Source: Escherichia coli (GTDB lineage: Bacteria; Pseudomonadota; Gammaproteobacteria; Enterobacterales; Enterobacteriaceae). Taken from it: DNA of 64,000 bases. The notes beneath the pieces are model-generated. The model worked only from the letters and a program-made list of their open reading frames with translations, was not told the DNA's origin and made no database searches. The stretch lies in the NCBI RefSeq assembly GCF_003018255.1, contig NZ_CP027440.1; one strand, 5' to 3'. The translations under genes and the position numbers were made by a program. Shown piece by piece: positions 30,427 to 30,738 of the stretch. How positions within the stretch are numbered: the stretch's first letter is position 1; each line of letters starts with the position of its first letter.

Positions 30427-30673
30427 AATATTAATGGATTTTATGTAAAGAGGCTATCTTACTAATATTTAATGACATTTGCCATTACCGTTTGTGTTCA
30501 GGGGTCGTAATGAGGGCCGTGTGGTTGGTCGTTGAACAGATGACGTCGCCATCTGTTCAACATTCGTACCCGTGATTTCTCTATAACTATAACTCACAGA
30601 ACAACTTAGCGAGGAGCAGAGCGGTACGATCGTGAGAAACCCATTGAGGCACGCTGCAGTGCGTGTCATTGTT

Positions 30674-30704
30674 AGCCGGATGCGGCGTGAACGCTTTATC
30701 CGGA
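30674..30704. repeat. REP (repetitive extragenic palindromic) element
   Basis: GCCGGATGCGGCGTGAACGCTTTATCCGGAC matches the classic enterobacterial REP consensus. Confidence 0.8.
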
Positions 30705-30738
30705 CAACGATACTGACCGAGAGTCTGCAATGAAATAA

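What the first reader, a model, noticed from the sequence alone, without database searches (positions are those of the whole stretch)
30427..30738. Perfect 12-bp palindrome plus REP element in the sapA upstream region
Between ymjA and sapA lies a perfect inverted repeat GTTGAACAGATG-N7-CATCTGTTCAAC (30,531–30,561), about 105 bp upstream of the sapA start, with a REP element at 30,674–30,704. The palindrome is too long and exact to be chance and is positioned like a repressor operator or an RNA structure in the sapA leader.
Basis: seen in the sequence. Interest (0 to 1): 0.3.

Follow-up and report, generated by a model that had tools for sequence, protein, structure and literature searches.

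The report
Young strain-variable hairpin upstream of sapA
The perfect inverted repeat upstream of the E. coli sapA gene is real and not due to chance. However, it is a recent, fast-changing near-palindrome inside the transcribed sapA leader, perfect in only about 15% of E. coli genomes and absent from related genera, so it is probably an ordinary RNA/DNA hairpin and not a conserved repressor site.

Summary
GTTGAACAGATG-N7-CATCTGTTCAAC lies at 30531-30561, 105 bp upstream of sapA, and a degenerate REP lies at 30675-30708. About 0.05 such repeats are expected per window.

The perfection is specific to some strains. Among 5,421 E. coli genomes with this spacer, the exact allele occurs in 77 and a fully perfect 31-bp palindrome in 745. 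The rest carry 1-3 arm mismatches. Local diversity is 3-8 times that of the flanking promoter regions. The G->A change that perfects the arms sits on at least 3 haplotype backgrounds. Sister Escherichia species have only a weak version, and Citrobacter, which shares the surrounding ~184 bp, has none.

Published SMRT-Cappable-seq start sites place the repeat at +19..+49 of a distal sapA transcript and at -82..-112 of the main promoter. ymjA-sapA read-through transcripts also cross it, so it is transcribed as a stem-loop of -12 to -23 kcal/mol. I found no U-tract, no Rfam family, no compensatory changes, no PuuR box and no extra half-sites.

Best reading: a near-palindrome kept close to perfect by hairpin-linked mutation, with at most a small effect on the RNA. 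An operator is not excluded but has no support. Interest is low.

The parts
30531..30561 (-). Near-palindrome, perfect 12-N7-12 in this strain. It is transcribed on the sapA sense (minus) strand as a 14-bp stem with a 3-nt loop.
   Evidence: window allele -20.6 kcal/mol, z = -5.8. Single copy per genome.
30550..30561 (-). The arm farther from sapA and nearer promoter P2 (sense GTTGAACAGATG). This is the conserved arm: invariant in Escherichia except T30554A, and kept as GTTGACCA in Citrobacter.
30531..30549 (-). The arm nearer sapA plus the spacer. This is the fast-evolving half, with polymorphic sites at 30531, 30540, 30543 and 30548. It is strongly diverged in E. whittamii and in locus L026 (labelled E. 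coli SCPM-O-B-8794).
30579..30579 (-). Distal sapA transcription start (P2), equal to MG1655 1357263. The repeat lies at +19..+49 of this RNA.
   Evidence: PMC6131387 Supplementary Data 2. Coordinates converted.
30586..30591 (-). Inferred P2 -10 hexamer TATAGT (-12..-7), lying inside a (GTTATA)2 tandem. There is no good -35.
   Evidence: Sequence. The position relative to the published start site is my inference. The simple consensus scan found no promoter.
30449..30449 (-). Proximal sapA transcription start (P1), equal to MG1655 1357133, giving a 23-nt 5' UTR. The repeat lies at -82..-112 relative to it.
   Evidence: PMC6131387 Supplementary Data 2.
30456..30484 (-). Inferred P1 core promoter TGGCAA-17-TAAGAT. 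This is the most conserved block of the spacer across genera.
30675..30708 (+). Single degenerate REP element downstream of ymjA. It is absent from Escherichia sp. MOD1-EC7003.
   Evidence: (I1).
30427..30610 (-). Ancestral sapA upstream region shared with Citrobacter and some Enterobacter/Lelliottia. Sequence beyond about 30610 is specific to Escherichia and came with ymjA.
   Evidence: (homology covers query positions 129-312).
30739..30984 (-). ymjA (DUF2543). Its transcripts read through into sapA. The gene sits at this position only in Escherichia.
28783..30426 (-). sapA, the first gene of sapABCDF.

Best explanation
This is a young near-palindrome of the E. coli lineage. It lies in transcribed DNA between the two mapped sapA promoters and is not a dedicated protein-binding site.

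One arm belongs to the conserved, promoter-proximal part of the distal (P2) leader. The other arm has drifted towards complementarity in E. coli. The ancestral E. coli allele was a 14/15 match, GTTGAACAGGTGGCG-T-CGCCATCTGTTCAAC. A recurrent G->A change at its single mismatch (30540) makes it perfect in some lineages, including this strain. That is the behaviour expected of a near-palindrome that forms a hairpin and is corrected by template switching, or that mutates at unpaired bases.

Because P2 transcripts and ymjA read-through transcripts cross it, it is copied into a stable stem-loop of -12 to -23 kcal/mol, depending on allele, at +19..+49 of the 153-nt sapA leader. Any effect it has is most likely exerted there, as a modest change in the decay, processing or elongation of the long transcripts. 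The main sapA promoter P1, 97 bp downstream of the repeat's centre, makes an mRNA that does not contain it.

Shown: the sequence, the allele frequencies, the lack of conservation, transcription across the repeat (published start sites), and the fold energies. Inferred: the mutational mechanism, and the weakness or absence of a regulatory role.
For: - Allele counts in 5,421 E. coli genomes: window type 77, perfect 31-bp type 745, K-12 type (1 arm mismatch) 1,713, ancestral GG type 1,663, B2 type (3 arm mismatches) 1,046.
- Nucleotide diversity among 15 E. coli: 0.056 in the repeat, against 0.007 (P2 region), 0.016 (P1 region) and 0.012 (sapA 5' end).
- A30540 occurs on at least 3 local haplotype backgrounds whose nearest relatives carry G. 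A30543 also occurs on several backgrounds.
- The GG allele is shared with the outgroup Escherichia sp. E1V33.
- Complementarity falls to 10/15 and 8/15 in locus L026 and E. whittamii. Their hairpins are no better than shuffled sequence (-6.4 and -7.8 kcal/mol, z about -1).
- Citrobacter keeps only one arm. RNAalifold finds no shared helix there.
- Start sites and read-through transcripts come from PMC6131387.
- Near-palindrome correction by template switching is established in E. coli (PMC7202029). It has also been proposed to keep bacterial inverted repeats perfect (PMC5941160).
Against: - All five major E. coli alleles still fold far better than shuffled sequence (z -3.6 to -7.8).
- Two of the five polymorphisms (30531, 30543) are G-C to G-U changes in the sense RNA only, and one restores a Watson-Crick pair. 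This pattern would also fit weak selection for the RNA helix.
- G30543A is recurrent too, yet it lowers DNA symmetry, so template switching alone does not explain the hot spot.
- Homoplasy was judged from 23 sequences and about 1 kb of flank. Short gene-conversion tracts cannot be excluded.
- No expression data for any allele were available.
Confidence: 0.5

Rival explanations
1. It is a functional cis-acting RNA stem-loop selected in E. coli. In the P2 leader and the ymjA-sapA intercistronic RNA it would block 3'-5' exonucleases, create an RNase III or processing site, or pause RNA polymerase ahead of the C-rich tract that follows. This would set the ratio of ymjA to sapABCDF message or the stability of the long sapA mRNA, much as the neighbouring REP may do.
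For: - It is transcribed, according to published start sites.
- It is stable in 97% of E. coli genomes.
- Repeated changes move it towards perfect pairing.
- Two polymorphisms are wobble-compatible only on the sense strand.
- A C-rich, G-poor tract (18 C to 5 G in 40 nt) follows immediately.
Against: - No pair shows a compensatory double change, and covariation is no better than shuffles.
- The B2 allele has two internal mismatches (-12 kcal/mol).
- The helix is absent in sister species and genera that keep both promoters.
- Diversity is higher than in the flanks, not lower.
- Full-length ymjA-sapA-sapB reads show it does not terminate efficiently.
- No 3' end at these coordinates turned up in the supplements I could search. 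Those files may be truncated.
Confidence: 0.25
2. It is an operator for an unidentified dimeric or tetrameric DNA-binding protein. Bound there, the protein would block elongation from P2 and from ymjA, or act on P1 from about -97.
For: - Its symmetry is far beyond chance.
- Its location between two promoters is compatible with a roadblock.
- One arm is conserved as far as Citrobacter.
Against: - The symmetry is not conserved across genera, nor across 85% of E. coli genomes.
- The variable positions lie inside the arms.
- The half-site does not recur above chance in 64 kb.
- The PuuR box AAAATATAATGAACA occurs three times in the puuA-puuD region but not here at up to 3 mismatches.
- YmjA is a very acidic 81-aa protein, which makes it an unlikely DNA binder (my inference from the sequence).
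- No paper in the searchable library links a regulator to this site.
Confidence: 0.12
3. It is the transcription terminator of ymjA.
For: It is a strong hairpin 180 bp downstream of the ymjA stop, on the sense strand.
Against: - No U-tract follows it on either strand, and the terminator scan found nothing.
- SMRT-Cappable-seq reports ymjA-sapA and ymjA-sapA-sapB co-transcripts.
Confidence: 0.04
4. It belongs to a small protein-coding gene (a 21-aa or a 66-aa ORF crosses it).
For: ORFs exist at 30563-30498 (21 aa) and 30669-30469 (66 aa) on the minus strand.
Against: The B2 allele, present in 1,046 genomes, introduces stop codons in both frames: ATG TTG AAC TGA, and ...CAA TGA. The Citrobacter sequence does not keep either frame.
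Confidence: 0.02

Closest known systems
Near-palindrome (quasipalindrome) mutational hot spots corrected by template switching, such as the E. coli thyA hot spot and lacZ reporters (PMC7202029), and the proposed maintenance of perfect inverted repeats in Proteobacteria (PMC5941160)
   Same: It is an imperfect inverted repeat whose natural variants differ at or next to the mismatch and loop. There is a recurrent change to the fully complementary base on several backgrounds. Diversity is elevated relative to the flanks.
   Different: The mechanism is inferred from population data and was not measured. A second recurrent change (G30543A) reduces symmetry, so simple deamination or mispairing at exposed bases of the hairpin may contribute.
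REP/BIME and other intercistronic stem-loops that shape mRNA decay
   Same: It is a stable stem-loop without a U-tract, transcribed within a polycistronic RNA, and a genuine REP lies 115 bp upstream in the same spacer.
   Different: It is single-copy in every genome, with no family of copies. It has no REP consensus. No stabilising effect has been shown.
Bacterial repressor operators, such as the neighbouring PuuR boxes
   Same: It is a palindromic duplex close to promoters.
   Different: It does not match the PuuR box. The symmetry is not conserved among orthologous promoters. The arms are polymorphic within the species.
Intrinsic (Rho-independent) terminators, including the other perfect inverted repeats in this window
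   Same: It is a perfect inverted repeat of similar size. The five others lie at the ends of convergent genes.
   Different: It lies in a co-directional spacer upstream of a gene, has no T/A runs flanking the stem, and is read through.

Membership tests
Intrinsic terminator | G+C-rich stem-loop followed directly by a U-tract | tested here: not met
   The scan found no terminator-like site in 30300-31150. The sequence after the stem is GACCAACC on the sense strand and ATTCGTAC on the antisense strand.
Intrinsic terminator | Transcripts end at the hairpin | tested here: not met
   ymjA-sapA and ymjA-sapA-sapB co-transcripts are reported in PMC6131387. Supplementary Data 1 of that paper contains no number with the coordinate prefixes searched for this spacer (13571-13574), so it lists no defined transcript end there.
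REP element (applied to 30675-30708) | Match to the REP consensus and multiple copies in the genome | tested here: met
   3 mismatches to a 34-nt consensus recalled from memory, a second copy at 40071-40104, and 0 expected by chance. The Rfam naRNA4 hit is below threshold. It is not annotated in the MG1655 record.
REP or other dispersed repeat (applied to the palindrome) | Several copies per genome | tested here: not met
   There is one place per genome for every allele, apart from a few plasmid-borne duplicates. This test detects only copies sharing an exact 28-nt word.
Transcription-factor operator | Symmetry conserved in orthologous regulatory regions | tested here: not met
   Citrobacter, Enterobacter and Lelliottia share the ~184-bp upstream region but lack the second arm. 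E. whittamii and locus L026 are eroded.
Transcription-factor operator | The same half-site recurs at other targets | tested here: inconclusive
   Only the 64-kb window could be scanned: 6 matches at up to 2 mismatches against 5.7 expected. A whole-genome scan was not possible.
Transcription-factor operator | A protein binds the site | not testable with these tools
   No binding data were found in the searchable literature. This needs EMSA, pull-down, ChIP or DAP-seq.
PuuR regulon | PuuR box AAAATATAATGAACA | tested here: not met
   Boxes with 0-2 mismatches lie at 34268, 34363 and 34440 in the puuA-puuD region. None at up to 3 mismatches lies in 30427-30738. The consensus was recalled from memory and is validated by those hits.
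Cis-regulatory RNA structure | Transcribed on the strand that folds | tested here: met
   Published start sites at 1357263 and 1357699/1357701 on the reverse strand.
Cis-regulatory RNA structure | More stable than shuffled sequence | tested here: met
   -12.0 to -23.3 kcal/mol, z -3.6 to -7.8, for the five main E. coli alleles.
Cis-regulatory RNA structure | Pairs kept by compensatory changes, and the helix conserved in relatives | tested here: not met
   0 of 14 pairs have a change on both sides, and covariation is no better than shuffles. RNAalifold predicts no helix there across genera.
Rfam families | Match to any covariance model | tested here: not met
   No hit overlaps 30531-30561 even at E <= 10.
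Near-palindrome (quasipalindrome) hot spot | Recurrent change of the mismatched base to the complementary one | tested here: met
   A30540 is found on the BL21-type, O157/F2_81-type and window-type backgrounds, each nearest to G-carrying haplotypes. The sample is small and conversion tracts are not excluded.
Near-palindrome (quasipalindrome) hot spot | Template switching is the mechanism | not testable with these tools
   This needs reporter assays, for example with and without AZT and in exonuclease mutants, as in PMC7202029.

The most novel reading that the evidence does not exclude
The hairpin could be an E. coli-specific regulatory allele series that links transcription coming from the ymjA/puu (putrescine uptake and catabolism) side to expression of the SapBCDF putrescine exporter. 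On this reading, phylogroups differ in how much read-through or P2 transcription reaches sapA. The helix is perfect in the O157 and B lineages. It is weakest in the four sampled B2-type strains, in all of which puuP is reduced to a 108-nt remnant; in G749, the one examined further, the whole puu cluster is missing.
Probability: 0.08. Interest if true: 0.4.

Novelty: new member of a known kind. Interest (0 to 1): 0.15.

Why it matters
If the best reading is right, this matters little for sapA biology. The conserved regulatory information lies in the two promoter blocks, not in the palindrome. Its value is mainly as a caution and a small case study. A 12-15 bp perfect inverted repeat next to a gene can be a strain-specific allele of a fast-evolving near-palindrome and not an operator. 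The site also gives a natural example, countable across more than 5,000 genomes, of recurrent mutation at a hairpin. If the hairpin does change sapABCDF expression, the natural allele series would be a ready-made way to test how leader structure affects putrescine export.

Tried and rejected
- Rfam at a permissive threshold gave nothing on the palindrome.
- The consensus promoter and terminator scan found nothing in the spacer, so promoters were placed from published start sites instead.
- PuuR operator: rejected. The original PuuR paper (PMC3434745) and the dRNA-seq paper I tried by id (PMC4288677) are not held.
- Start-site or 3'-end supplements from Cappable-seq 2016, Adams 2021 and TERMITe 2025 had no entries with these coordinates. 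These files may be cut, so absence is weak evidence.
- Shimada 2014 predicted a constitutive promoter ATGACA-15-TTTAAT in this spacer. It would start near 30636, but no SMRT-Cappable-seq start site supports it, and in this strain the -10 reads CTCAAT.
- Small-ORF readings: rejected because of stop codons in the B2 allele.
- A matS-like centre (K-12 GTGACGTCGCCAT against GTGACRNYGTCAC, recalled from memory) has two mismatches and varies between alleles. I considered it and dropped it without a formal test.
- GcvB and other sRNA links: no literature support.

Full report
**What is there.** The window is E. coli; the spacer is 100% identical to strain 104. On the minus strand lie sapA (28783-30426), ymjA (30739-30984), puuP and puuA. 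The 312-bp ymjA-sapA spacer contains GTTGAACAGATG-ACGTCGC-CATCTGTTCAAC at 30531-30561, 105 bp from the sapA ATG. A degenerate REP lies at 30675-30708, with 3 mismatches to the consensus, and a second REP lies at 40071-40104. Perfect inverted repeats with arms >=12 bp and spacer <=12 are expected 0.05 times per shuffled window, but 6 are present. The other five sit between convergent genes, like bidirectional terminators. This one lies in a co-directional spacer and has no T-run.

**Transcription map.** SMRT-Cappable-seq of MG1655 (PMC6131387, Supplementary Data 2) lists four reverse-strand start sites. After conversion (window = MG1655 - 1,326,684) they are:
- 1357133, window 30449 (P1), giving a 23-nt 5' UTR.
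- 1357263, window 30579 (P2), giving a 153-nt leader on sapABC transcripts.
- 1357699 and 1357701, giving ymjA-sapA(-sapB) co-transcripts.

From the sequence, P1 reads TGGCAA-17-TAAGAT. P2 has TATAGT at -12..-7 and no clear -35. These hexamer assignments are my inference. The palindrome therefore lies at +19..+49 of the P2 RNA, inside the read-through RNA from ymjA, and at -82..-112 of P1. The sense RNA folds into a 14-bp stem with a 3-nt loop (-20.6 kcal/mol, z = -5.8). Rfam has nothing there.

**Variation within E. coli.** The spacer is present in 5,421 of 5,426 complete genomes and is unannotated. Exact 31-mer searches give the following counts:

| Allele | Description | Genomes |
|---|---|---|
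| Window type | perfect 12-bp arms, spacer base A | 77 |
| BL21/O157 type | GTTGAACAGATGGCG-T-CGCCATCTGTTCAAC, a perfect 31-bp palindrome | 745 |
| K-12 type | one arm mismatch | 1,713 |
| GG type | one arm mismatch | 1,663 |
| B2 type | three arm mismatches | 1,046 |

Together these account for 5,244 genomes, always in single copy. Perfect 12-bp arms are thus a minority state of about 15%.

In an alignment of 15 E. coli, nucleotide diversity is 0.056 in the palindrome. It is 0.007 in the P2 region, 0.016 in the P1 region, 0.012 in the 5' end of sapA and 0.054 in the REP.

The GG allele is shared with the outgroup Escherichia sp. E1V33 and with the central haplotypes, so it is probably ancestral. 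The perfecting change G30540A occurs on at least three local backgrounds: BL21-type, O157/F2_81-type and window-type. In each case the nearest haplotype carries G. G30543A is likewise found on several backgrounds.

**Variation between species.** ymjA precedes sapA only in Escherichia. The 184 bp next to sapA (30427-30610), which include both promoters and the palindrome position, are homologous in Citrobacter and some Enterobacter/Lelliottia. There the arm farther from sapA survives as GTTGACCA, but the other arm is unrelated. No palindrome exists, and RNAalifold predicts no helix at that place. In E. whittamii and locus L026, a divergent genome labelled E. coli SCPM-O-B-8794, complementarity is 8/15 and 10/15. 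Their hairpins are no better than shuffled sequence. Across nine distinct Escherichia alleles, no pair shows a compensatory double change. Four pairs vary by wobble and five are broken in some allele.

**Interpretation.** A protein operator should be conserved at least within the species and in orthologous promoters. This element is neither, and its variable sites are inside the arms. The obvious local candidate, PuuR, has a different box. That box is found three times in the puuA-puuD region but not here. The half-site is not enriched in the window. No paper in the searchable library reports a regulator for this site.

An intrinsic terminator is excluded by the missing U-tract and by the read-through transcripts. 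Small ORFs across the repeat acquire stop codons in the B2 allele.

What remains is a hairpin-forming near-palindrome. One arm is constrained as part of the conserved P2-proximal leader. The other arm has moved towards complementarity in E. coli. The residual mismatch is repeatedly converted to a pair. This is the documented behaviour of near-palindromes (quasipalindromes) under template switching (PMC7202029; PMC5941160). Not everything fits. G30543A recurs although it lowers DNA symmetry. All the changes are C->U on the sense strand, which is the non-template strand, so deamination of exposed bases may also contribute.

Because the element is transcribed, the alternative that the RNA helix is weakly selected cannot be dismissed. 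All major alleles remain stable, and two polymorphisms are G-C to G-U only in the sense RNA. A short C-rich, G-poor tract follows the stem. My probabilities are:
- By-product near-palindrome with at most a small RNA effect: about 0.5.
- Selected RNA element: about 0.25.
- Operator: about 0.12.

**Novelty and score.** The element is unannotated, but it belongs to known kinds: near-palindromes and leader or intercistronic stem-loops. Interest is low (0.15). The most novel reading I cannot exclude is an allele series that tunes read-through from the ymjA/puu side into the putrescine exporter operon. The weakest allele was found in all four sampled B2-type strains, in which puuP is reduced to a 108-nt remnant. 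In G749, the one examined further, the whole puu cluster is missing. This is a single lineage, so the association has no statistical weight.

Noticed in passing
window 30456-30490 (minus strand); loci L008-L062: The block GGTAATGGCAAATGTCATTAAATATTAGTAAGATAGC, which carries the inferred P1 -35 and -10, is almost invariant from E. coli to Citrobacter and recognisable in Klebsiella and Raoultella. It is far more conserved than the palindrome. It contains an imperfect palindrome, ATGGCAAATGTCAT (30485-30472), overlapping the -35, which would be a better operator candidate.
   Followed up: partly
window 30581-30592; L002 (strain YP3): The inferred P2 -10 (TATAGT) lies in a tandem hexamer (GTTATA)2. 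Strain YP3 has a third copy, a 6-bp insertion that would shift promoter geometry.
   Followed up: no
L002, L003, L092, L093, L104: In the four sampled B2-type strains puuP is reduced to a 108-nt remnant. In G749, the one examined further, the whole puu cluster is gone, so ymjA lies next to pspF. All four strains carry the most degraded palindrome allele.
   Followed up: partly
window 30489-30528 (minus strand): A C-rich, G-poor tract (18 C, 5 G in 40 nt) lies directly downstream of the hairpin. It includes AACACAAAC, which is conserved in Citrobacter. From general knowledge it resembles a Rho-loading site or a CA-rich sRNA target. This was not tested.
   Followed up: no
window 4602-4638, 9078-9103, 9639-9668, 25100-25136, 61398-61432: There are five other perfect inverted repeats with arms of 12-16 bp. 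At least three lie between convergent genes, for example just after sapF at 25100-25136, and are presumably bidirectional terminators.
   Followed up: partly
window 34268-34282, 34363-34377, 34440-34454: Three matches (1, 2 and 0 mismatches) to the PuuR box AAAATATAATGAACA lie in and next to the puuA-puuD divergent region.
   Followed up: yes
loci L019, L025, L027, L046, L056, L066, L078, L083 and others: Enterobacteriaceae have two unrelated kinds of sapA upstream region. In Salmonella, Enterobacter cloacae, Kosakonia, Atlantibacter and others, sapA directly follows the 3' end of pspF, with a different conserved block (AAGTGCGATACACTTTGCA). The E. coli/Citrobacter/Klebsiella type is distinct.
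   Followed up: no
L008 2059-2679: In Citrobacter sp. MGH106 the genes upstream of sapA are an RND efflux pump and a TetR-family regulator, not ymjA or puu. The shared ~184-bp sapA upstream region is therefore independent of the neighbouring genes.
   Followed up: no
window 30636-30669 (minus strand): The constitutive sigma-70 promoter predicted for sapABCDF by genomic SELEX (ATGACA-15-TTTAAT; PMC3946193) maps here. No SMRT-Cappable-seq start site supports it, and in this strain the -10 reads CTCAAT.
   Followed up: partly
window 30642-30671: A second, imperfect palindrome (CATTGAGGCACGCTGCAG / CTGCAGTGCGTGTCATTG, 72%) lies next to the REP. It is predicted to form a short hairpin in the ymjA 3' region.
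   Followed up: no
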